Positions 27,198-64,000 of a stretch of 64,000 nucleotides of DNA are shown piece by piece (within the stretch, counting starts at the first letter, position 1; every line of letters begins with the position of its first letter). The stretch is from Chloroflexota bacterium (lineage in GTDB: Bacteria > Chloroflexota > Dehalococcoidia > Lucifugimonadales > Australimonadaceae). The notes beneath the pieces were generated by a model. The model made no database searches. It was not told where the DNA came from and worked only from the letters and a program-made list of their open reading frames with translations. The position numbers and the translations under genes are program-made. The stretch is from assembly GCA_028874795.1 (NCBI GenBank), contig JAPPHT010000060.1:15498-79497 (forward strand), in the 5' to 3' direction.

Positions 27198-29705
27198 TCA
27201 CTGCTTCCGGAGTGGTTCAAGATAGGTAAGGATTCCTTTCGGGTTCAGCCCAAGTTGTACTAACGACTTCTCAATTTGGGCCAGGAGGCTGTCGTCGCTC
27301 ACGCTCGTTGCAGTTACGTCTCGAAACAGCGAACGGGCTCTCTGTATCAGCAGATCCAGATTGTTGAAAGTGAGCGCAAAGGTGTCACCTGGGGTGACAT
27401 TGTTCGTCACTAGCGGCACCGAGTTAACGATTACACCCTGGGCCGTGTGAGCGGGATAGTGCACGGAGAACCACTTCATTGCCTCAAGCAACTGGCCGTG
27501 GTCCGACTTGTTCGCTGGCCTTCTATCCATCTTTCGGCTCTTGGCCTCAATCACTAGGGCTTCGGTCGAACTCAACAGCCACAAGACATCAGGTCCGATG
27601 TTGTCCTCGTCATCAGGGCGGCTCGTGCTGTAACCCAGGAGTCTGCCAAGATTCTTGAGGGACTCCTCAAACTGGTTACTCGAAGACTTGGGCGTCAGCC
27701 AATCAACCCACTCCTCAAATTCTGCGAGGAGGCCCCGGCGTGGGCTGTAAGCACTTAGCTGATTCAGTATCTGCTGTGACTGGACCGTTGGTGAAGTCAT
27801 TGGTGTGTGGTGGAAACCGACTCGTGGCCTGAGCAGCATCTTGTTGGAATGATATGCCTGTCGCTGTAGCTCGTCGGACTTCTCGTGGTGGCCCCACAGC
27901 CAAGCGGCTCGCGCAGATTGCTGGCAAAGCCATCCCTTTACCTTGCCATCCACGGCCGGAGTATCTTCGATAAAGGCACCGTGAGTGTCAATGGCTTTGT
28001 CAAAATAGCCGTCAAGTAGGAGCCGGAAGAATCGCCTCTCCTGTCCTGCAACAAGCAAGTTGGTCTTGTTGATGGAAGGACTTGAAGTTTCTTCTGCCAG
28101 AACCTGTGCTTGATACTCCACCCAAGCTTGGTCACGGTTGAAGGATTGGAGTACTGTTTTCCCAAGTTGGTCCAATGAGTAGATTTCTTCGCTGATAGAA
28201 ATGCCCAATTCTAACTGAACACGAGTCGGTGATGTAAGTAAGGAACGGTTCGCATGATTGCTAATCCACTTGGCTAGCGCGTTATCCGCAAGGACAACCA
28301 CACAATGGTCGCCAGCACCTCGAGTTCCTCTTCCCATCCCCTGTTCGATTCTCTGTGCAATGGTGGTGTTAATGGTTGCGCTACCTTCAAGCACAGTTGC
28401 TCTGTATAAGTCGTACGAATTGCTACCAGCAGGCAGTCCGTTTAGCACCAAGAGTCGGCAACTGTCACCTGGTAGGTCAATTCCGTCGTACCTATTGGCC
28501 ATGACTATCGGGCCGTTCTTTGACCTGCGGACTAGGTCATCAATTGCATCAGCTACGGAATCACCATCTACAGTCTCGGCGATCTCCTCCCATGCCTGCG
28601 CTTGCCTTGTTGAGGGTACAAGTATCACAGTTCCGGCTTTCCCTGCCGCCCATGTGACGAGTCTCCGTAAGGCCGGTTCAACCTCCGCCCGGTCAATGCC
28701 CATGAGGTTAGGCACAAGAATCATTCGTTCACCGACACCAGCAAGGGACAAAGGGGCAATGGGTGATGAGACTGAAGAGGGGTCGGCTCCAAAGGTTCGT
28801 ACGATTGAACTGTCGTCAGCAACCGTAGCGGACATGTATATCCTGCGGGGGCACTCAGCGAAGGACGGAAACATGTCTACGTTAGGGTACAAGAGCGTAA
28901 TTGCGAAGTCGCGACGGCTCACGAACGCGTGGCACCTGTCAAAATGGTCACGCAGCAGCGGCCACTGCCACGGGAAATGCTTAGCCTGAAGAGAAGCCAG
29001 TTGCTGCCGGATTTCCTGATGGCTTGTCGACCAACTCCAGTATGGAACTTCAATTACTCCCTCGTCTCTGGCTTCTGTGATGTCATCGAAGGTACCCTGC
29101 TTGCCGATTTCCTCAAATGCGTGGCGAAAGCATTGTGTGAGCTCTCGGTAAGTGTCGGGCAATTGTTCTCGCCCTATGGCTATTGAGAACTGATCCCGAA
29201 CGACAGAAAATGCAGTATGTGCATCATCTAATATGATTGCAGTTGGATGGACTATGTCTCTCCTGCCACCCGCTACTCCAAACTTGCTTAGGCCATTAAA
29301 TAAGGCTTGATATGAGGCAACCATGATTGCCTTGCCACTGAGAAAGTCACCATCTAAGTCTTGCCCGGCTATATATGGGACCACGCGGATACCAAATGGT
29401 GTCGCATGAGAAACTGTCTGCTGGACCAATTGGTTAGTAGCACATAGGAATAGAACAGGACCACCGTTTTCAGCCAACGTGGATTGCGCCATCAGCAGCC
29501 CTACTAAAGTCTTCCCGCCACCCGTATTCAGTTTGAGCACGAGATCTCGCTGGTCTCTCCTACCGAACCATTCGTCAAGCGCCTCGGCCTGGCTCTGCCA
29601 TAGATCGTCTATTCCTTCCGGCTTCGGTAGACGCAAGAAGATATCCTTTGGGTGAACTACCTTGGCATTCGAGCGGGCTCTTCTAAGTCGATCAAAGTCG
29701 ACCAT
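27198..29705 (-). CDS. SF2 (DinG/Rad3-like) helicase fused to a C-terminal PD-(D/E)xK-type nuclease-like domain; candidate single-gene defence protein
   Basis: 835 aa. Motifs are Walker A TGGGKT (aa 61-66), motif II DDAH (aa 160-163), SAT (MSATV), DinG-type C-terminal helicase motifs (ANRYDGIDLPGDSCRLLVLNGLP; QRIEQGMGRGTRGAGD), then GPD(706)VLW...LVIE(720)AK(722)S. G+C is clearly lower than in the flanks. Confidence 0.75.
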   Translation of the reverse strand: MVDFDRLRRARSNAKVVHPKDIFLRLPKPEGIDDLWQSQAEALDEWFGRRDQRDLVLKLNTGGGKTLVGLLMAQSTLAENGGPVLFLCATNQLVQQTVSHATPFGIRVVPYIAGQDLDGDFLSGKAIMVASYQALFNGLSKFGVAGGRRDIVHPTAIILDDAHTAFSVVRDQFSIAIGREQLPDTYRELTQCFRHAFEEIGKQGTFDDITEARDEGVIEVPYWSWSTSHQEIRQQLASLQAKHFPWQWPLLRDHFDRCHAFVSRRDFAITLLYPNVDMFPSFAECPRRIYMSATVADDSSIVRTFGADPSSVSSPIAPLSLAGVGERMILVPNLMGIDRAEVEPALRRLVTWAAGKAGTVILVPSTRQAQAWEEIAETVDGDSVADAIDDLVRRSKNGPIVMANRYDGIDLPGDSCRLLVLNGLPAGSNSYDLYRATVLEGSATINTTIAQRIEQGMGRGTRGAGDHCVVVLADNALAKWISNHANRSLLTSPTRVQLELGISISEEIYSLDQLGKTVLQSFNRDQAWVEYQAQVLAEETSSPSINKTNLLVAGQERRFFRLLLDGYFDKAIDTHGAFIEDTPAVDGKVKGWLCQQSARAAWLWGHHEKSDELQRQAYHSNKMLLRPRVGFHHTPMTSPTVQSQQILNQLSAYSPRRGLLAEFEEWVDWLTPKSSSNQFEESLKNLGRLLGYSTSRPDDEDNIGPDVLWLLSSTEALVIEAKSRKMDRRPANKSDHGQLLEAMKWFSVHYPAHTAQGVIVNSVPLVTNNVTPGDTFALTFNNLDLLIQRARSLFRDVTATSVSDDSLLAQIEKSLVQLGLNPKGILTYLEPLRKQ

Positions 29706-57665: not shown

Positions 57666-59522
57666 ATGGTCCTCTCGCTTTCCGAACGCTTATCCCGCGG
57701 TCTCCTGCTCTGCGATGGCGCTACCGGCACGCAGTTGTATGCGCACGGTCTGACGGCTGCGCTGCTGGAACCGGCGAACGTTTCCCAGCCGGACGTCGTG
57801 AAGGGTGTGCACCTCTCCTATCTCCGAGCGGGCGCGGAGCTGATCGAGACCAACACTTTCGGCGCCAACGCGGCCAAGCTCGGCATGCACGGCATGGCGG
57901 ACCGCGTCGAGGAGCTGAACCGCGCGGGTGTCGCTCTTGCCAGGGAAGCGGCGCGGCTGCACGGCCAGAACGTCTGGGTGGCCGGTTCGATGGGCCCGCT
58001 GCCGCCGGACGCGACGGGCGCAGGCCTGTTCTCACCGGCATCGGCTTGGAACGTCTTCGCTGAACAGGCTGCCGCGCTCTCGGATGGAGGGGCAGACCTC
58101 GTCCTCCTGGAAACCTTCACTTCGCTCGCCCAACTGCGGCAGGCCATCGACGCAGTGCAGTCCGTCTCCGACCTGCCGGTCATAGCCGAGATGACGTTCA
58201 CGGGCGACGGCCTGACGCCGGGCGGCGATTACCCGGAGGACGTCGTCGCCGCGCTGAAAGACGCAGGGCTGCTGGCGCTGGGTGCGAACTGCAGCGTGGG
58301 CCCGGACCTGCTGTTGAGCGTCGTGGAGCGCATGGCCGCGACCGCCGACGTGCCGCTCGTCGTTCAACCGAACGCCGGTCTGCCCGCATACGTGAATGGG
58401 CGGCTGGAGTATGCGGCGCCTCCGGAGTATTTCGCGGAGACGGCGAGAGAGATCGCGCGCGCGGGCGCAGTGGCGATCGGCGGATGTTGCGGAACGACAC
58501 CCGCGCACATCGCCGCGGTGCGTGACGCGGTGCGGGGGGTGCTGCAGTCGTCGACGCGTCGGGCCCCTGCTCCGCCCGCCGCGCGACGGCAACTCGTCGA
58601 GGCGCCGGCCGCTCCGCCCACCGGGCTCGCGGAGCACATCGCGCGGGGCGAGTTCGTCGTGACGGTGGAGCTCGCGCCGCCGCGGGGGTTCGACATCAGC
58701 GGAACGCTGGACAAGCTGCGGGGCATCGCCGGGAGTGTGAGCGCAGTGAACGTCGCGGACAGCCCGCGGGCGCAGGGCAGGATGAGCGCTCTCGCCACGG
58801 GAAGCCTGGTGCAGTCGCGGCTGGGAGTCGAGGCGGTCATGCACATGGCAATCCGCCACCGCAACCTGCTGGCGCTGCACTCGGACCTGCTGGGGGCGCA
58901 TGCGCTCGGACTGCGCAACGTCTTCACGGTGATGGGGGACGTTCCGCTCTCTGGCGACTATCCCCAGGCCACCGCAGTGAGCGACGTGTCGGCGTCCGGC
59001 TTGATCCGGCTGATGGCGGGTTTCAACGAGGGCGTGGATGGGAACGGGCGGGAGATCGGGCAGCCGACCTCCTTCTTCATCGGAGCGGCGCTGAACTTCA
59101 ACGCGCCGGACCTGGACAGGGAGCTTCGCGTACTGGAGCGCAAGGTGAAGGCCGGGGCGCATTTCCTGCTGACGCAGCCGGTGTATGCGGCCGAGCACGT
59201 GGAGCGCGTGTGGTCGCTGCTGGGGGGATTCCCGCTTCCGGTCATCATGGGCGTGCTGCCACTGCGCAACGCCCGACACGCACGCTTCCTCCACAACGAG
59301 GTGCCCGGCATCGTGGTGCCCGAGGACGTCATGCGGCGCATCGACCTCGCCGAATACCGCGGCGACGCCGGCGGCAAGGAGGGCATCGCGCTGAGCCGCG
59401 AACTGCTGACGGCGCTCTCCGGGCGCATCGCCGGGGCGTACTTCATGCCGCCGTTCGAGCGGTTCAGCGTCGTGCCGGAGACGATGGAAGGGCTGTCGCT
59501 GCCGGGGTCGGCCCCGGCTTAG
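57666..59522 (+). CDS. Bifunctional homocysteine S-methyltransferase / 5,10-methylenetetrahydrofolate reductase (YitJ-like)
   Basis: In-frame ATG at 57666 of ORF 56967..59522. It has an N-terminal Hcy-binding domain (LLCDGATGTQLY...GGCCGTTPAHI) and a C-terminal MTHFR domain (FVVTVELAPPRG...LLTQPVY). Confidence 0.88.
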   Translation: MVLSLSERLSRGLLLCDGATGTQLYAHGLTAALLEPANVSQPDVVKGVHLSYLRAGAELIETNTFGANAAKLGMHGMADRVEELNRAGVALAREAARLHGQNVWVAGSMGPLPPDATGAGLFSPASAWNVFAEQAAALSDGGADLVLLETFTSLAQLRQAIDAVQSVSDLPVIAEMTFTGDGLTPGGDYPEDVVAALKDAGLLALGANCSVGPDLLLSVVERMAATADVPLVVQPNAGLPAYVNGRLEYAAPPEYFAETAREIARAGAVAIGGCCGTTPAHIAAVRDAVRGVLQSSTRRAPAPPAARRQLVEAPAAPPTGLAEHIARGEFVVTVELAPPRGFDISGTLDKLRGIAGSVSAVNVADSPRAQGRMSALATGSLVQSRLGVEAVMHMAIRHRNLLALHSDLLGAHALGLRNVFTVMGDVPLSGDYPQATAVSDVSASGLIRLMAGFNEGVDGNGREIGQPTSFFIGAALNFNAPDLDRELRVLERKVKAGAHFLLTQPVYAAEHVERVWSLLGGFPLPVIMGVLPLRNARHARFLHNEVPGIVVPEDVMRRIDLAEYRGDAGGKEGIALSRELLTALSGRIAGAYFMPPFERFSVVPETMEGLSLPGSAPA

Positions 59523-59567
59523 GAGTGCGATGGTATCCTGAACCAGCGTCAGGTTACCGGCGCGCGT

Positions 59568-59643
59568 GGGGCCGTAGCTCAGTTGGGAGAGCACCTGCTT
59601 TGCAAGCAGGGGGTCAGGGGTTCGAGTCCCCTCGGCTCCACCA
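59568..59643 (+). tRNA. tRNA-Ala (anticodon UGC), CCA encoded
   Basis: GGGGCCG acceptor with the G3-U70 identity pair, anticodon arm CCTGC-TTTGCAA-GCAGG, T arm CAGGGGTTCGAGTCCCCTC, then ACCA. Confidence 0.95.
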
Positions 59644-60192
59644 GACTTGACGAAATCAAGAACCTTCACGCTGAGGCTCGTCCTAGACCTGAAGGAGAGT
59701 CGGTCTCCGTAGAGTGAACACCACATCTCGCGGCGCGACCTACGGTGTGAGGACAACAGTCATAGCGCGCTTGTCCACGCCGCCGACTTCTTCCGCACCA
59801 GAACCAAACTAGGGAACAGCTGTTGCCACGGCGAGGTTCCAACCCTGAGCGCAACCCATGCACCCCGACCGCCGCCGCCGCGAATAACCCGTCGGCCTAC
59901 CAACCTCCGCTTCGCCTGTCCGGGCGGCGTCGGGCTCGGCGAACCAGTAGCCGAAGCGTGGCGTGGTGAAGATGTAGGAGGGGTTCCTCGCGTCGGCGCC
60001 TAGTTCTGACGCAGTTTATTATGAACGAGCGCAGCAAGCGCTCCTTGACCGTGTGCTGCTGCCGCATGATCGTGGCGTGGCGGCTATGGTGGCGCTGTCC
60101 GCATGGCTTACAGCACGATGTCGTTGCGCAGCATCAAGGTCTAGGAGTTGTCCAGTTGGGTGAACGGACAAATTGTCAGAGCATCGGAGATT

Positions 60193-60606
60193 CTAGACGA
60201 AGGCTATCAGCAACGAGACTCCGACCAACACTAGGAGGGGGATGTAGAATAGGTACAGCCTTGCCGCCACCCCGATGAGACTGTCCGAGCCCTTGGCGCC
60301 TGAGAGCCCTTCCATTTTGAAGTAGCCGTCGCTGCCGTATTCTGGGGGAGGGCCAACTCTCACGGAGTCATACAACCTTCGGAAAGCTCGTTCTTCTGCG
60401 AGGAATCGCGCGTCGAGCATCCACAGCGGAAGAATCGCAGTCCCGGCAATAGCGCCGATTGGGGAATTGGTGCTCGCCGTGAGCGCTACCAACGCCGCCG
60501 TAGCTGCTGCTGCCGTCGACTTGATGGCGAAGGAGTTTCTCCCGAGCCTGTTTACGACCGCCTGGATGAGCTCCAGATGTTCTATTCTGGCCATTTCTTG
60601 GCTCAT
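60193..60606 (-). CDS. Multi-TM membrane protein, candidate effector partner of the TIR-like protein
   Basis: The ATG at 60606 overlaps the upstream TGA (ATGA). The 137 aa comprise an N-terminal helix (IEHLELIQAVVNRLGRNSF), two adjacent hydrophobic helices, the motif WMLDARFLAEERAFRRLYD, and a C-terminal TM (LYLFYIPLLVLVGVSLLIAFV). Confidence 0.6.
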   Translation of the reverse strand: MSQEMARIEHLELIQAVVNRLGRNSFAIKSTAAAATAALVALTASTNSPIGAIAGTAILPLWMLDARFLAEERAFRRLYDSVRVGPPPEYGSDGYFKMEGLSGAKGSDSLIGVAARLYLFYIPLLVLVGVSLLIAFV

Positions 60607-60977
60607 ATCTCGTCCAGTCGTCTGTTGATCTGCTTCCATCTCCAGGGGATGGGATCCTCGACCCCGGCAACTCCAGCGTAGGGTCGCTTCTTCGGTCTAA
60701 CCTGAAGAGTGGGTTTGCCGAAGCTACGCGCCATGTCCACTTCGGTCCTTACTCCCGGGGCGTTGTGGGTGTCCTCGCCAATCAGGACAATCACTACGTC
60801 GCACCCTCGAATCGCCTCTCTCGCCTCTCGTTTCCACTCCTCCGTAGGATAGGCTTCCCTAAGTGAGCAATTCCTGATGCGGTGCTGAGTCTGCAGCTTC
60901 GCCTGTTCGTAGAAACTGTCTCTGAGGTCCCTGTCTTTGTCGAACTCGAAACTCACGAAGATGTCCATCGTAGCCAT
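60603..60977 (-). CDS. TIR-like domain protein (MTH538/DUF1863-type)
   Basis: MATMDIFVSFEFDKDRDL... and CDVVIVLIGEDTHNAPGVRTEVDMARSFGKPTLQV match the pattern recalled for PF08937-type TIR-like domains (vFiSf..D; vvvLiG..T..s.wV..Ei..A...gkP). Confidence 0.7.
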   Translation of the reverse strand: MATMDIFVSFEFDKDRDLRDSFYEQAKLQTQHRIRNCSLREAYPTEEWKREAREAIRGCDVVIVLIGEDTHNAPGVRTEVDMARSFGKPTLQVRPKKRPYAGVAGVEDPIPWRWKQINRRLDEI

Positions 60978-61128
60978 GGGCCTCTTCTCGCCGCATGGAG
61001 TCATATGCCTGCCCGGCCCGCCTTTCTTGTACGAGAAGCCGCGCAAGGCATACTAGCGAGCCAACTGATACTGTACTACGAACCCCCTAGCGGGTAGCGT
61101 CCCTGCGGGCCGATAGCCGGTGGTCCAT

Positions 61129-61147
61129 GCTCCCCTCACAGGGGAGC
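61129..61147 (-). terminator. Short GC hairpin between the desulfurase gene and the TIR-like operon
   Basis: gctcccc tcaca ggggagc has a 7-bp stem. No clear U-tract follows, so its function is uncertain. Confidence 0.25.
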
Positions 61148-61263
61148 GATGCCCTCTGCTAGTGCATACACACCTTGAGCACCAAGGCTAATCTCCCAAG
61201 TCCAATCGACTTGCAGCACTTATGTTAGCGCCGGTTTGAAAATGACCCACCCACGATTGACAC

Positions 61264-62463
61264 TTATCCTGTGGTTAGTCCTGCCACTCTCAGAGACTGC
61301 ACGGCGTTCTTTACGACACGCGCTGCTTCCTCCACATCGCGGTCAGTTGTGAAGCGCCCGAAACTGAATCGGATAGAAGACTCCGCTTGGGCTGATGTCC
61401 GTCCTATGGCTCGGAGCACGTGCGAGGGCTCAGGGATACCAGACGTGCAGGCTGCTCCGGTGGACGCCGCAATGCTTGGCTGGAGAGATCCAAGGACATC
61501 CTGTGCCGCTGCACCTTCAAAACGCAGGTTCGCATTGCCAGGGTGGCGCCAGCTTCCAATGGGCCCGTTGATGGCCATCGAGGGAACGGTGGCTCGCAAG
61601 CCTTCCACGAAAGCGTCACGTTGCCTGGCCACCCTCAGACGTTCAGGGGCGGTATCGGAAGCACAGATCAAGTCCGCCGCTGCTCCCATTCCAACGCATA
61701 GCGGCACTGGCATCGTGCCGGACCGCAATCCGGCTTGCTGCCCACCCCCATAGATGATCGGTTCAATCTGTCCTTGTACATCCCGCCGGATGTATAAGGC
61801 GCCGATCCCTTGTGGGCCGTACATCTTGTGCGCCGACAAGCTGATTAGGTCAGCATGTTCAGCAAGGTGGCGGAGGTCCATGGCGCAGGGGGCCTGGGCG
61901 GCGTCGCAGTGGAAGAGAACACCATGCTCTGCCAACAGAGCGGCGATGCGCGGTAGGTCTTGAATCGTCCCGATCTCGTTGTTGACCGCCATCACTGAGA
62001 CGACGAGAACTGAATCGTCAAGCATGGCCTCTAGGGTTCCCAAGTCAAGGAAGCCCTCCTCATCGACCGGAATGAACTCAACTACGAGGCCCTCTCGCTC
62101 TTCGAGAGACCTAGCTGCCGCCATCACGCACTTGTGTTCGATTGCGCTTACCAAGACCCTAGGACGCTTCGATGATGCCCGGCGGCCCAAGCCCAACAGA
62201 GCGAGGTTGTTCGCCTCAGTGGCGCCTGAAGTGAAGACGACCTCATCGGCGTCGGCTCCGATCAGCGCTGCAACGGACGACGTTGCGCGTTGGACAGCTT
62301 CCAACGAACGCCAACCGACTACATGATCGTTCGAATGGGGGTTGCCGAACAGCTCACGCCAGTAGGGGGCCATCGCCTCAAGGACACGCTGATCTACGGG
62401 CGTCGTCGCCTGATAGTCCGCATAGATTGTTTGCACGCCAGGGGACGGCTGCGTGTCGCTCAT
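61264..62463 (-). CDS. Cysteine desulfurase (IscS/NifS class), DndA/SspA-like by context
   Basis: Start at MSDTQPSPG. TSGATEANNLAL, SLSAHKMYGPQGIGALYIR (PLP Lys) and TGAACTSGIPEPSHVLRAIG (catalytic Cys loop) are present. It is divergent from a DUF4007-like gene inside the low-GC island. Confidence 0.8.
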   Translation of the reverse strand: MSDTQPSPGVQTIYADYQATTPVDQRVLEAMAPYWRELFGNPHSNDHVVGWRSLEAVQRATSSVAALIGADADEVVFTSGATEANNLALLGLGRRASSKRPRVLVSAIEHKCVMAAARSLEEREGLVVEFIPVDEEGFLDLGTLEAMLDDSVLVVSVMAVNNEIGTIQDLPRIAALLAEHGVLFHCDAAQAPCAMDLRHLAEHADLISLSAHKMYGPQGIGALYIRRDVQGQIEPIIYGGGQQAGLRSGTMPVPLCVGMGAAADLICASDTAPERLRVARQRDAFVEGLRATVPSMAINGPIGSWRHPGNANLRFEGAAAQDVLGSLQPSIAASTGAACTSGIPEPSHVLRAIGRTSAQAESSIRFSFGRFTTDRDVEEAARVVKNAVQSLRVAGLTTG

Positions 62464-62775
62464 CGATTTCACCGAGGGACTTATTCCTCTCTCCGATACT
62501 TCCAGCCCATTTGTATCCCGATTGTATAATGCTCTCCTGCTGGTTCGACACATGCGGTGGAAGACATGGCATCGAACGCAGACGCACCAACCTGTCGCGC
62601 AAGCGCCGGAGTTCCGGCTGGGATGAGTCGAGGCCCAACTGTCTGAGGGGGAGCACCCGAAGACATGGGTGGCGCTGGCCCTCCCAAAGCCTCGCGCTCA
62701 AGGCCACCGGCTTCTATACAGCGTACAAGCACCTGTGCTACCGTCCACCCAACGTTCTTTCTAGGAGGAGGGTGC

Positions 62776-63741
62776 ATGCCCCGAGGCCCCCTCTACGAAG
62801 ACGGGTACAGCCCACATCTGTCCGGGCACGAGACGTTTCCCCTCAGGTATGGGTGGTTGAAGAAGGCTTTCGATGCTGTCGAAAGCACAGAAGGTCGTAG
62901 CGAGAGCAACCGGCACGTCTTCTTGGGTCCTCATGCCATCGCCGAGTTCGGCGTGGGCAGGAACATGGTCGCCTCCATCCGCCACTGGGCGACGGCCGCA
63001 GGCGTCATCAAGGAAGGGTCTGAATCCACGCAGATCGAGACTACTCCACTCGGACGGCGTCTGTTCGGTAAGGACGGCCTCGATCCCTACATGGAGGAGC
63101 CAACTACATCCTGGCTTGTTCACTGGAATATTGCGGGCAACTCGAAGAAGACCACTTGGTTCTGGGCCTTCAATCACTATCCAGCCATGGTCTTTGAACG
63201 CGAAGGACTGGTTCAGGCCATCAACGGACTCGCGAAGGAACGGGAGTGGCCCCGGGCCGCCTATGCCACGATCAAGAACGATGTCGCTTGCTTCCTACGA
63301 ACGTATGTGGCTCTGCCTCCTTCTGGGAAGTCCAATTTAGAGGAAGGATTGGAATCGCCCCTCACCGAGCTAGGCCTGATCAGACAGACCGGGACACGGG
63401 AGCGCTATAGATTCGTCCGAGGGCCGAAGCCATCTCTTGGCGTCGGCGCGTTCGGCTACGCCATGACCCAGTTCTGGAATGAACGCTTCCCGAACACCAG
63501 CACCCTATCCTTCGAAGCGTTGGCCCACGAGCCCGGCTCTCCAGGGAGAGTGTTCCTATTGGACGAAAACGAACTGATAGACAGACTATCCAGCATAGAG
63601 AGCGCGACCGACGGCGCCTATAGATGGTCTGAGACCGCCGGCCTCAAGCAAGTGATCCGAGACGCCATAGTGGACAAAGAAGCCGCCACCCGGCTCCTTG
63701 CAAGAGACTATTCTTCGGCGCACAGGCGGAGAGCGGCGTAA
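62776..63741 (+). CDS. DUF4007-like protein (SspB-like component of Ssp-type DNA phosphorothioation, by recollection)
   Basis: ATG after ctaggaggagg. The N-terminal LSGHETFPLRYGWLKKAFDAV matches my recollection of the DUF4007 N-terminal signature. The protein is 321 aa. Confidence 0.5.
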   Translation: MPRGPLYEDGYSPHLSGHETFPLRYGWLKKAFDAVESTEGRSESNRHVFLGPHAIAEFGVGRNMVASIRHWATAAGVIKEGSESTQIETTPLGRRLFGKDGLDPYMEEPTTSWLVHWNIAGNSKKTTWFWAFNHYPAMVFEREGLVQAINGLAKEREWPRAAYATIKNDVACFLRTYVALPPSGKSNLEEGLESPLTELGLIRQTGTRERYRFVRGPKPSLGVGAFGYAMTQFWNERFPNTSTLSFEALAHEPGSPGRVFLLDENELIDRLSSIESATDGAYRWSETAGLKQVIRDAIVDKEAATRLLARDYSSAHRRRAA

Positions 63742-64000
63742 TGACATTGGCAGAGCGTGTCACGGTTACAAGCCGGTTCCAACGGGCAATCCGCATCGAC
63801 CTCGACCTAGGCAGTGCAGATGCCCTGGAGGGATTCATCTGCCCGCAGTCCTCGGCGGAGGTCCTGCAGACCATGGCCCGCCATGTCTCGGAGGACTCTC
63901 ACGGGGCATTCACTTGGACGGGCCCGTATGGCAGCGGCAAGTCGAGCCTGGCGATCGCCCTCAGCGCACTTCTGAATGGAAGGTCGTCTCTGAGAGAGGC
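63741..64000 (+). CDS. P-loop ATPase, 5' partial (SspC/DndD-like candidate), runs off the window
   Basis: The ATG overlaps the upstream TAA (TAATG). It translates to MTLAERVTVTSRFQRAIRIDLDLGSADALEGFICPQSSAEVLQTMARHVSEDSHGAFTWTGPYGSGKSSLAIALSALL, containing Walker A GPYGSGKS. The frame stays open to the window end. Confidence 0.6.
   Translation, partial: MTLAERVTVTSRFQRAIRIDLDLGSADALEGFICPQSSAEVLQTMARHVSEDSHGAFTWTGPYGSGKSSLAIALSALLNGRSSLRE

What the first reader, a model, noticed from the sequence alone, without database searches (positions are those of the whole stretch)
59644..64000. Low-GC genomic island inserted immediately 3' of tRNA-Ala(UGC), stacking at least two defence-type modules
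Base composition drops visibly right after the CCA end of tRNA-Ala (59643). The next 550 bp or so has no intact ORF, only stop-interrupted fragments; for example, the minus strand reads ...NPSYIFTTPRFGYWFAEPD... before stops. After that come the TIR-like/TM pair, a cysteine desulfurase, a DUF4007-like gene and a P-loop ATPase. tRNA 3' ends are classical integration sites for islands, and defence genes cluster in such islands. The island is cut by the window edge, so its integrase, distal att repeat and further cargo are unseen.
Basis: partly seen in the sequence, partly recalled or inferred. Interest (0 to 1): 0.7.

Follow-up and report, generated by a model that had tools for sequence, protein, structure and literature searches.

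The report
Defence gene island beside tRNA-Ala
About 12 kb of foreign, lower-GC DNA carrying anti-phage systems starts exactly at the end of a tRNA gene in an uncultured sponge-associated bacterium, at a site where serine recombinases insert such islands in related genomes; this is a clear example of a known phenomenon, with some new details.

Summary
tRNA-Ala(UGC) ends at 59643. GC falls from 0.67 to 0.58, and GC3 from about 0.88 to 0.57-0.70. The source contig runs 8.4 kb past the window, and GC returns to host level about 12.1 kb after the tRNA.

The cargo is a TIR-like/membrane pair (PADLOC candidate PDC-M50) and one Ssp phosphorothioation system. SspA, SspB and SspC are in the window; SspD follows. 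Next comes a conserved, undescribed trio: a small, possibly GIY-YIG-like protein, a DGQHR/DndB-like protein and an SNF2 helicase.

In 35 of 36 related Dehalococcoidia loci scanned, yitJ-tRNA-Ala is conserved. The DNA after the CCA is hypervariable and often holds other defence systems. None of 42 related loci carries this island's genes there.

No tyrosine integrase or tRNA direct repeat exists. The 24 nt spanning the CCA match a half-site of an att-like site used by large serine recombinases. Their genes abut tRNA-Ala in related genomes and in a sister contig with a 100% identical flank. This copy lacks the recombinase and a detectable distal site.

The same island follows tRNA-Ile in a sister sample. 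That is either real recombination or misassembly.

Verdict: a real island and a new member of a known kind.

The parts
59568..59643 (+). tRNA-Ala(UGC), intact. Its T-arm and acceptor 3' end act as the bacterial half of the attachment site.
   Evidence: ARAGORN; Rfam RF00005, 71.6 bits. yitJ-tRNA-Ala is conserved in 35 of 36 related loci scanned.
59641..59664 (+). 24-nt recombinase-arm half-site CCAGACTTGACGAAATCAAGAACC, whose first 3 nt are the tRNA's CCA. Its reverse complement reads ...VLDFVKSG, the C-terminal peptide of one recombinase subfamily.
   Evidence: Unique in the window; 0 expected by chance. It is 21/24 identical to the arm that overlaps the last codons of an intact recombinase in L053. 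The same arm follows tRNA-Ala in L009 and L013, tRNA-Ile in L002 and tRNA-Glu in L051.
59665..60192 (.). Degenerate, ORF-poor spacer. It holds a short gene fragment on the minus strand (59929-59985, ...NPSYIFTTPRFGYWFAEPD...) that looks like the end of an OmpR-type winged-helix domain. That resemblance rests on my own knowledge and is not confirmed.
   Evidence: No ORF of 100 aa or more. No recombinase remnant by tblastn. No Pfam hit for the fragment. No Rfam family.
60193..60606 (-). 137-aa protein modelled as three long helices (low confidence; probably membrane-spanning); PADLOC candidate PDC-M50A. Inferred to be the effector partner of the TIR-like protein.
   Evidence: PDC-M50A, E 2.1e-21. 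Family of 2,035 representative clusters at E<=1e-3. The single-sequence model shows three long helices at low confidence. It overlaps the TIR gene by 4 nt.
60603..60977 (-). 124-aa TIR-like protein of the ThsB type; a weak match to PDC-M50B.
   Evidence: PF08937 ThsB_TIR, E 5.5e-9, above cut-off. PADLOC ThsB 2.2e-5 and PDC-M50B 3e-4. AlphaFold model pLDDT 75.5. Best Foldseek hits are ThsB (9b7d), B. cereus TIR (8fz9) and EcThsB (8wcf) at TM about 0.5. A Glu aligns with the conserved Glu of EcThsB.
61264..62553 (-). SspA, a cysteine desulfurase and sulfur donor, transcribed divergently from sspB.
   Evidence: PADLOC SspA, E 2.6e-130; PF00266, 2e-78.
62776..63741 (+). SspB (DUF4007). The start is the ATG at 62776, not 62665.
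   Evidence: PADLOC SspB, 5.6e-106; PF13182, 3.3e-86. The 321-aa product is the one on record in four contigs. The 358-aa version is not on record.
63741..64000 (+). N-terminus of SspC (1,128 aa in full; Walker A GPYGSGKS), cut by the window edge. Its start overlaps the sspB stop.
   Evidence: PADLOC SspC, 2.9e-34 for the fragment and E=0 for the full protein on the source contig. Features past the window, in window-equivalent coordinates: SspD 67124-67966; small protein 67993-68445; DGQHR protein 68493-69887; SNF2 helicase 69916-71595; GC change-point about 71715; contig end 72441.

Best explanation
Bases 59644-64000 are the first 4.4 kb of a horizontally acquired defence island. The island runs about 12.1 kb, to window-equivalent position about 71,700. 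It begins exactly at the CCA end of tRNA-Ala(UGC) in a sponge-associated Dehalococcoidia (SAR202-like) genome.

How it got there (partly shown, partly inferred):
- In this clade the 3' ends of tRNA genes that end in CCACCA are attachment sites for a large family of large serine recombinases.
- The recombinase gene's last codons overlap one arm of an att-like site, an imperfect inverted repeat of about 52 bp.
- From the junction sequences I infer that strand exchange occurs in the NCCA just before the terminal CCA. The tRNA therefore stays intact and the element's arm follows the CCA directly.
- In the window that arm is still present (59641-59664), but the recombinase gene is gone. This copy is therefore either a fixed relic or a cassette that only a recombinase supplied in trans could move.

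What it carries:
1. A TIR-like protein plus a small membrane protein, in the arrangement of PADLOC candidate PDC-M50. I infer that the TIR domain responds to infection by consuming NAD or making a signal, and that the membrane partner causes abortive infection.
2. An Ssp DNA-phosphorothioation system. By homology, SspA supplies sulfur, SspD is the PAPS-reductase-like ATP pyrophosphatase, SspB binds or nicks DNA, and SspC is the ATPase.
3. Fused to the Ssp genes in one conserved seven-gene cassette: a small, possibly GIY-YIG-like protein, a DGQHR/DndB-like protein and an SNF2 helicase. I infer these are the modification-dependent restriction arm.
For: Composition: GC 0.668 falls to 0.580. Change-points are at 59575 and about 71715. 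GC3 is 0.86-0.90 in host genes and 0.57-0.70 in island genes.

Source contig: 112,239 bp, 100% identical to the window where they overlap.

Hot spot:
- yitJ-tRNA-Ala is conserved in 35/36 related loci scanned.
- The downstream DNA is syntenic in only 7 loci and unique in the rest.
- At the same site, L010 has Druantia DruE (E=0), L015/L030 an E1-E2 system, and L028 an HKD-SNF2 protein plus a type IIG restriction-modification enzyme.
- No island gene has a homologue at this locus in 42 related loci.

Alternative state: L059 and L060 share 2,685 bp at 100% identity up to the CCA. They then carry a serine recombinase on the minus strand that reads into the tRNA.

Recombinase family:
- Domains PF00239+PF07508+PF13408; 4,486 hits at E<=1e-20.
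- The C-termini fetched end ...VLSTVK(S/F)GG or a close variant. Most then diverge; in several the continuation reads like the reverse complement of a tRNA 3' end.

Att-like site: in L053 it is GGTTCTGTCTACCGTCAAGTCTGG-TGGG-CCGGACTGGACGAAATCGAGAACC. The window arm matches its right arm at 21/24.

Cargo calls.

Cassette: the seven-gene block is conserved in 8/8 contexts examined. One of these is a long contig (2.89 Mb) of a related Dehalococcoidia genome, where the cassette is again a low-GC block.

Precedent: Dehalococcoides ssrA islands have a serine recombinase (DsiB) whose 3' end overlaps attL and ssrA (PMC3146451).
Against: - There is no recombinase gene or recognisable remnant beyond the arm in the 12.8 kb after the tRNA.
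- No second att arm and no tRNA 3' repeat rises above shuffled background.
- The right boundary is not clean. GC rises inside a truncated TPR fragment. The next gene is the C-terminus of a helicase-like protein that is itself common in this clade's mobile elements. The contig ends 0.7 kb later, so the element may be larger than the low-GC block.
- In a sister sample the identical island (99.98%) follows tRNA-Ile behind a 16S gene. At least one junction therefore reflects either rearrangement or misassembly.
- The polarity of the central dinucleotide in L053 does not straightforwardly predict which arm should join the tRNA here (note 6).
- All functions of the cargo are inferred from homology.
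Confidence: 0.8

Rival explanations
1. The island is not a dead relic. It is a recombinase-less cassette that serine recombinases encoded elsewhere in the genome move or swap, in trans, between the CCA ends of different tRNA genes. The two states tRNA-Ala|island and tRNA-Ile|island would then be the products of one reciprocal exchange, possibly a chromosomal inversion.
For: - Three junctions occur among near-identical DNA. They are tRNA-Ala|arm-island (L001), 16S-tRNA-Ile|the same arm-island at 99.98% (L002), and tRNA-Ala|recombinase with a 100% identical flank (L059/L060).
- The junctions share only CCACCA. That is too short for a k-mer assembly join.
- The arm is kept while the recombinase is lost in 4 of 5 L020-type loci and in all L001-type loci. 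This is what one expects if the arm is still used.
- Two elements sit in tandem at one site in L053.
- Cis-mobilizable islands were proposed for the Dehalococcoides ssrA islands.
Against: - The reciprocal junction (tRNA-Ile|recombinase in sample ...213) was not seen and could not be searched for.
- No distal site was found.
- Recombination between two hybrid sites is not the normal reaction of serine integrases (established knowledge).
- Strain mixtures and pruning of assembly graphs could also give these contigs.
Confidence: 0.25
2. The junction is an assembly chimera. The low-GC segment belongs to another organism of the sponge community and was joined to the Dehalococcoidia contig at the conserved tRNA.
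For: - The contig comes from a short-read metagenome assembly.
- tRNA genes are classic chimera points (established knowledge).
- A different organism in the same sample carries a related Ssp cassette (L057).
- The island is joined to a different tRNA in another sample.
- A Logan contig breaks 40 nt after the CCA.
Against: - The island is flanked on both sides by host-like DNA on one contig; GC3 of the right-hand ORF is 0.876.
- The right-flank gene has homologues only in this clade's loci: L025, L021 and L054.
- A long contig (2.89 Mb) of a related Dehalococcoidia genome holds the same cassette, with 90% protein identity for the DGQHR gene. There too it is a low-GC block next to the same helicase-like gene.
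- L057's cassette is only about 72% identical in DNA.
- The junction falls exactly at a recombinase arm that is found at tRNA-Ala in other genomes.
Confidence: 0.07
3. This is a variable 'hot spot' kept diverse by homologous recombination between conserved flanks. No site-specific integration at the tRNA is involved.
For: - Many defence hot spots turn over this way (established knowledge).
- This copy has no recombinase and no attR.
- The region after the tRNA has lower GC in most relatives.
Against: - Divergence begins at the very first base after the CCA in every comparison, including a 100% identical flank.
- There is no conserved right flank for homologous exchange.
- Recombinase genes or their arms sit at the junction in at least 11 loci.
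Confidence: 0.08
4. This is a classical tyrosine-integrase island with a 15-50-nt direct repeat of the tRNA 3' end. The integrase and the repeat would lie beyond the contig end.
For: - This is the commonest architecture of tRNA-linked islands (established knowledge).
- The far end of the element is unseen.
Against: - The 8.4 kb beyond the window hold no tyrosine recombinase and no repeat.
- Every recombinase found at this tRNA in related DNA is a large serine recombinase.
- The junction carries that family's arm.
Confidence: 0.04

Closest known systems
Dehalococcoides ssrA-specific genomic islands (DsiB serine recombinase; McMurdie et al. 2011, PMC3146451)
   Same: - Same bacterial class.
- Low-GC islands sit at the 3' end of a small stable-RNA gene.
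- The integrase is a large serine recombinase lying next to attL on the reverse strand.
- Its 3' end overlaps attL and reads into the RNA gene, so its C-terminus varies (compared).
- Tandem and recombinase-less ('cis-mobilizable') islands occur.
   Different: - The target here is the CCA end of tRNA genes: Ala, with Ile and Glu also seen. It is not the T-loop of tmRNA.
- No 20-bp direct repeat was seen.
- The cargo is defence genes, not reductive dehalogenases.
- Whether a small DsiA-like partner recombinase exists was not tested.
SspABCD-SspE and SspABCD-SspFGH phosphorothioation defence systems (PMC8092258 and references in it)
   Same: - SspA, SspB (DUF4007), SspC and SspD are all present with very strong profile matches.
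- sspA is divergent from sspBCD.
- A cluster of further genes follows directly downstream, where restriction partners sit.
   Different: - There is no SspE, SspF, SspG or SspH.
- A small protein, a DGQHR/DndB-like protein and an SNF2 helicase follow instead.
- Published work notes that 83.9% of sspBCD loci lack a known partner.
- I found no paper that describes this trio.
Thoeris ThsB and PADLOC candidate PDC-M50
   Same: - The TIR-like protein matches the ThsB_TIR family by sequence and by fold.
- The membrane partner matches PDC-M50A strongly.
- The two genes overlap, as in an operon.
   Different: - No ThsA (SIR2/Macro-SLOG) protein is present, so this is not Thoeris.
- The match to PDC-M50B is weak (3e-4).
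- PDC-M50 is an untested candidate, and I found no paper on it.
Defence islands at tRNA-linked integration hot spots in general
   Same: - The content at one conserved tRNA varies between close relatives.
- Several defence systems are stacked there.
- The composition is foreign.
   Different: - The integration machinery is a serine recombinase acting at the CCA end. It is not a tyrosine integrase that duplicates the tRNA 3' half.

Membership tests
tRNA-linked genomic island | Starts at the 3' end of a tRNA gene | tested here: met
   Related and sister sequences diverge at the first base after the CCA (59643/59644).
tRNA-linked genomic island | Composition differs from the host genome | tested here: met
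   GC 0.58 against 0.668 (sd 0.037). GC3 0.57-0.70 against 0.86-0.90. Change-points at 59575 and about 71715.
tRNA-linked genomic island | Absent from the same locus in related genomes | tested here: met
   0 of 42 related loci have homologues of the island genes there. A sister contig with a 100% identical flank has other DNA.
tRNA-linked genomic island | Encodes its own integrase | tested here: not met
   None in the 12.8 kb after the tRNA; only the 24-nt arm remains. Integrases of the relevant family abut the same tRNA in L020, L025 and L059.
tRNA-linked genomic island | Distal attachment site or direct repeat | tested here: inconclusive
   Nothing rises above the shuffled background as far as the contig end. 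The element may extend past the contig end.
Large-serine-recombinase integrative element (Dehalococcoides ssrA-island type) | The recombinase gene's 3' end overlaps the att site and reads into the RNA gene | tested here: met
   Seen in L020, L025 and L059 and in the C-termini of P0004 and P0029. In the window only the arm survives.
Large-serine-recombinase integrative element (Dehalococcoides ssrA-island type) | The att site is an imperfect inverted repeat around a central dinucleotide | tested here: met
   The L053 site has 24-nt arms that match at 18/24 as an inverted repeat, around TGGG. All hybrid junctions have NCCA before the arm.
Large-serine-recombinase integrative element (Dehalococcoides ssrA-island type) | Recombination activity on these sites | not testable with these tools
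   This needs an in vivo or in vitro recombination assay.
SspABCD phosphorothioation system | SspA, SspB (DUF4007), SspC and SspD all present and adjacent | tested here: met
   PADLOC E-values: SspA 2.6e-130, SspB 5.6e-106, SspC 0, SspD 4.4e-135.
SspABCD phosphorothioation system | A known restriction partner (SspE or SspFGH) | tested here: not met
   The three downstream proteins do not match any SspE/F/G/H model. They match DndB (3.6e-14) and SNF2 helicases.
SspABCD phosphorothioation system | Phosphorothioate in the DNA | not testable with these tools
   This needs LC-MS/MS of DNA or iodine-cleavage sequencing.
Thoeris | ThsB (TIR) together with ThsA (SIR2 or Macro, plus SLOG) | tested here: not met
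   A ThsB-like TIR protein is present. No ThsA-like gene is in the island.
PADLOC candidate PDC-M50 | M50A and M50B encoded side by side | tested here: inconclusive
   M50A matches at 2.1e-21; M50B matches only at 3e-4. The genes overlap by 4 nt.
GIY-YIG nuclease (for the 150-aa protein just outside the window) | GIY...YIG...R...E...N motifs and a significant profile match | tested here: inconclusive
   Invariant GVY, YVG, R, E and N are present in 4 homologues. Pfam gives only 8.7e-4, below cut-off, and only for one homologue. A PDB profile search gave nothing relevant.

The most novel reading that the evidence does not exclude
The island is a recombinase-less cassette. Resident large serine recombinases shuttle or swap it between the CCA ends of different tRNA genes (here Ala and Ile), so that defence cargo is reshuffled among tRNA loci. 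Where the sites are inverted, whole chromosome segments would flip in these sponge symbionts.
Probability: 0.22. Interest if true: 0.65.

Novelty: new member of a known kind. Interest (0 to 1): 0.42.

Why it matters
As found, this is a textbook-style defence island in an uncultured lineage. It adds a clean, well-bounded example, not a new principle. Three details could be useful.

1. **Integration machinery.** It documents a very large family of serine recombinases (4,486 hits at E<=1e-20). The members examined come from Dehalococcoidia and other Chloroflexota assemblies. They target the CCA end of tRNA genes and leave a recognisable 24-nt arm. That arm gives a simple marker for finding island boundaries in SAR202-like and sponge-symbiont genomes.

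2. **A candidate partner for Ssp.** The small protein, DGQHR protein and SNF2 helicase are fused to SspABCD in all 8 contexts examined. The DGQHR family has 1,254 homologues at E<=1e-10. The trio is a concrete candidate for the missing restriction partner of the many 'orphan' Ssp systems, and it can be tested directly in E. coli.

3. **Polymorphic junctions.** The differing junctions among near-identical strains from two sponge samples offer a natural test of whether such islands still move.

Tried and rejected
- **SspB start.** The exact-protein look-up of SspB from the first ATG (62665) found nothing. The start at 62776 is the one on record.
- **Distal site.** I searched for a direct repeat of the tRNA 3' end and for a second att arm in L001 6700-19666. 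Only chance-level matches appeared. An 8-nt match (GCTCCACC at L001 18887) near the GC change-point is not significant.
- **Decayed recombinase in the spacer.** I first read the 549-bp spacer as a decayed recombinase gene. tblastn with two recombinase subfamilies finds nothing beyond the arm, so I rejected this.
- **Spacer fragment.** The minus-strand fragment NPSYIF... looks like the end of an OmpR-type domain to me, but Pfam gives no match. It stays unassigned.
- **Phage origin.** The arm patterns gave 0 hits in viral contigs, so there is no support for a phage origin of this arm.
- **Extending the contig.** The right-flank protein found no identical longer copy; the best match was 86% identical.
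- **TPR fragment.** The fragment at the right edge is not related to the TPR proteins that follow the cassette in L056 and L057.
- **Small protein.** A PDB profile search gave only spurious hits. A sequence search of the DGQHR protein against the PDB gave nothing useful.
- **Membrane protein model.** The single-sequence model is too poor (pLDDT 63.5, pTM 0.30) for a fold search.
- **Regulatory signals.** The promoter/terminator scan of 59400-62900 gave background-level results.
- **Literature.** Searches found no description of the Ssp trio or of PDC-M50.

Full report
**1. What is in the window**

ARAGORN and Rfam both place an intact tRNA-Ala(UGC) at 59568-59643 on the + strand. It lies 45 bp after a fused homocysteine-methyltransferase/MTHFR gene (yitJ-like, 57666-59522).

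The composition changes at this point:
- The 59 one-kb bins upstream have mean GC 0.668 (sd 0.037).
- The twelve bins after the tRNA have GC 0.544-0.608.
- The best single change-point is at 59575.
- GC3 falls from 0.86-0.90 (permease, yitJ) to 0.57-0.70 in every downstream gene.

- 549 bp without any ORF of 100 aa or more, holding the minus-strand fragment at 59929-59985.
- A 137-aa membrane protein (60193-60606, -) overlapping by 4 nt a 124-aa TIR-like protein (60603-60977, -).
- A cysteine desulfurase (61264-62553, -).
- A DUF4007 protein (62776-63741, +).
- A P-loop protein cut by the window edge.

**2. Going beyond the window**

The exact SspB protein is on record on four contigs. One is the source contig (ENA ERZ23495471, scaffold_371, 112,239 bp). 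It is 100% identical to the window and runs 8,441 bp further. A window coordinate equals the L001 coordinate plus 52,775.

The added sequence holds, in window-equivalent coordinates:
- the rest of SspC (63741-67127; PADLOC E=0);
- SspD (67124-67966; 4.4e-135);
- a 150-aa protein (67993-68445);
- a DGQHR/DndB-family protein (68493-69887; PF14072, 2.5e-29);
- an SNF2 helicase (69916-71595).

GC then returns to 0.68, with a change-point near 71,715. This happens inside a truncated TPR fragment. It is followed by the C-terminus of a helicase-like gene with host-like GC3 (0.876), and then the contig ends. The low-GC block is therefore about 12.1 kb.

**3. What the cargo is**

The desulfurase, DUF4007 protein and P-loop ATPase are SspA, SspB and SspC. 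With SspD they form one complete phosphorothioation module.

The three genes after SspD do not match SspE or SspFGH. SspFGH is described as having a Walker-A protein and an FtsK-like translocase.

The arrangement is conserved. SspA(-), SspB, SspC, SspD, a small protein, the DGQHR protein and the SNF2 helicase occur together as a block in all eight contexts I could inspect. These are L001-L003, L054, L055, L056, L057, L061 and two JGI contigs. The DGQHR protein identity among them runs from 90% down to 52%, and the gene order is permuted once.

The small protein has invariant GVY, YVG, R, E and N positions. It has only sub-threshold Pfam GIY-YIG matches, so 'nuclease' is a lead, not a result.

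A comparative study notes that SspE is the counterpart of DndB. A stand-alone DndB-like protein with a helicase and a possible nuclease is therefore a reasonable split version of a modification-sensing restriction arm. That is inference.

The TIR-like protein passes the Pfam ThsB_TIR threshold. Its model (pLDDT 75.5) is closest to ThsB structures, and it keeps the Glu that aligns with EcThsB. Its partner matches PADLOC candidate PDC-M50A (2.1e-21) and belongs to a widespread family of small proteins. No ThsA is present, so this is not Thoeris.

The TIR/TM pair is missing from all other copies of the Ssp cassette. It is therefore a separate module.

**4. Is it an island?**

A scan with the YitJ protein returned 42 loci from Dehalococcoidia/SAR202-like genomes at 60-94% identity. 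Several appear to be sponge-derived, judging by isolate names.

- tRNA-Ala(UGC) follows yitJ in 35 of the 36 loci scanned.
- Downstream, seven genomes share one syntenic flank. All the others differ from the first base after the CCA, mostly with lower GC.
- At the same position L010 carries Druantia DruE (E=0), L015/L030 an E1-E2 system, and L028 an HKD-SNF2 protein plus a type IIG enzyme.
- No gene of this island has a homologue at the locus in any of the 42.

The strongest evidence comes from two contigs with the exact YitJ protein. One is from the sister sample SAMN13943214 (L060) and one from MAG GCA_034423295.1 (L059). Both are 100% identical to the source contig for 2,685 bp up to the CCA. 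They then continue with a different sequence: a large serine recombinase on the minus strand that reads into the tRNA.

**5. The integration machinery**

L020 and L025 also have large serine recombinases abutting tRNA-Ala on the minus strand. The family is very large: 4,486 proteins at E<=1e-20, with Resolvase, Recombinase and Zn-ribbon domains.

Nearly all the members I fetched end ...VLSTVK(S/F)GG or a close variant. Most then diverge. In several the continuation reads like the reverse complement of a tRNA 3' end, and in others it reads into an adjoining att arm. This is the behaviour described for DsiB of the Dehalococcoides ssrA islands.

In L053 the intact site is visible: GGTTCTGTCTACCGTCAAGTCTGG-TGGG-CCGGACTGGACGAAATCGAGAACC. 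It is an imperfect inverted repeat. Two intact recombinase genes converge on it, and each gene's last codons lie in one arm.

The 24 nt at 59641-59664 of the window (CCAGACTTGACGAAATCAAGAACC) match the right arm at 21/24. Their reverse complement reads VLDFVKSG, against VLDFVQSG in L053. The arm is preceded by NCCA in every junction examined.

The same arm follows tRNA-Ala in L009 and L013. A sister arm follows it in L010, L012, L015, L017 and L020. The arm also follows tRNA-Glu in a metagenome contig, and it follows CCACCA in four stretches (three distinct sequences) where no tRNA is predicted.

The three tRNAs share GGTTCGAnTCC at a fixed distance from CCACCA. This fits a shorter bacterial half-site (inference from what is known of serine integrases).

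**6. What is missing or unclear**

- This copy has no recombinase and no remnant beyond the arm.
- It has no second arm or tRNA repeat before the contig end.
- The gene at the right edge is a clade-typical mobile-element gene. It also flanks the Ssp cassette in L054, on the other side of the cassette. The element may therefore be larger than the low-GC block.
- In sample SAMN13943214 the identical island (99.98% over 12.7 kb) follows tRNA-Ile behind a 16S gene. The two junctions share only CCACCA. An exchange between two tRNA-linked sites would explain all three junctions seen, but I could not look for the reciprocal product. Misassembly in one sample is not excluded.

**7. Verdict**

The segment is a horizontally acquired defence island at a tRNA-linked integration hot spot.

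The refinements are:
- the integrase type is a large serine recombinase that acts at the CCA end;
- this copy has lost its recombinase;
- the three 'defence-type' genes are a complete Ssp system with an undescribed conserved trio;
- a second module of the PDC-M50 type is present.

In kind it is known. Its closest analogue is the Dehalococcoides ssrA islands.

Noticed in passing
window 27198-29705 (-): A second, isolated low-GC patch (0.49-0.57 against 0.67) consists of a single 835-aa DEAD/ResIII helicase gene. It matches PADLOC single-gene candidate PDC-S28 at E 3e-261.
   Followed up: partly
L001 15218-18820 (window-equivalent 67993-71595): A small protein (possibly GIY-YIG-like), a DGQHR/DndB-like protein and an SNF2 helicase follow SspD in all eight contexts inspected. 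They match no SspE/F/G/H model, and I found no paper describing them. They are a candidate third kind of Ssp restriction partner.
   Followed up: partly
L002 1-800: In a sister sample the same island follows 16S rRNA-spacer-tRNA-Ile(GAU) instead of yitJ-tRNA-Ala. The sequences become identical exactly at CCACCA. The contig also shows a 16S gene followed by tRNA-Ile with no tRNA-Ala or 23S gene after it.
   Followed up: partly
L059 2686-3973 and L060 2686-3121: These contigs have a 100% identical yitJ-tRNA-Ala flank. After the CCA they carry a serine recombinase with an uninterrupted reading frame as far as the contig goes (C-terminus ...VMKSVTGGG) instead of the island.
   Followed up: yes
L053 10001-13300: Two intact large serine recombinase genes converge on one 52-bp inverted-repeat site. 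On the left lies a defence island (type ISP restriction-modification enzyme, GmrSD, PIN/RHH). On the right lies a prophage-like region (S24 repressor, RecT, IstB-like). The gene caller missed the second recombinase.
   Followed up: partly
L010, L015, L030 and L028, downstream of tRNA-Ala: Other defence systems occupy the same tRNA-Ala site in related genomes: Druantia DruE, an E1-E2/ThiF system, and an HKD-SNF2 protein plus a type IIG enzyme.
   Followed up: partly
L057 3039-16252: A contig of a lower-GC organism from the same sponge sample carries a related Ssp seven-gene cassette (about 72% DNA identity). It is followed by a SIR2-STAND-TPR protein. This suggests the cassette circulates within the sponge community.
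   Followed up: no
window 58032-59756 (-): A spurious 574-aa ORF arises from reading through the tRNA on the opposite strand in GC-rich DNA. The same read-through inflates the called lengths of real recombinases (544 to 643 aa and more) in public gene calls.
   Followed up: yes
L046/L047, L050 and L052: The recombinase arm also occurs directly after CCACCA in metagenome contigs where no tRNA is predicted. In L050 it lies next to what looks like an IS21 istB-like gene. These may be secondary sites or decayed junctions.
   Followed up: no
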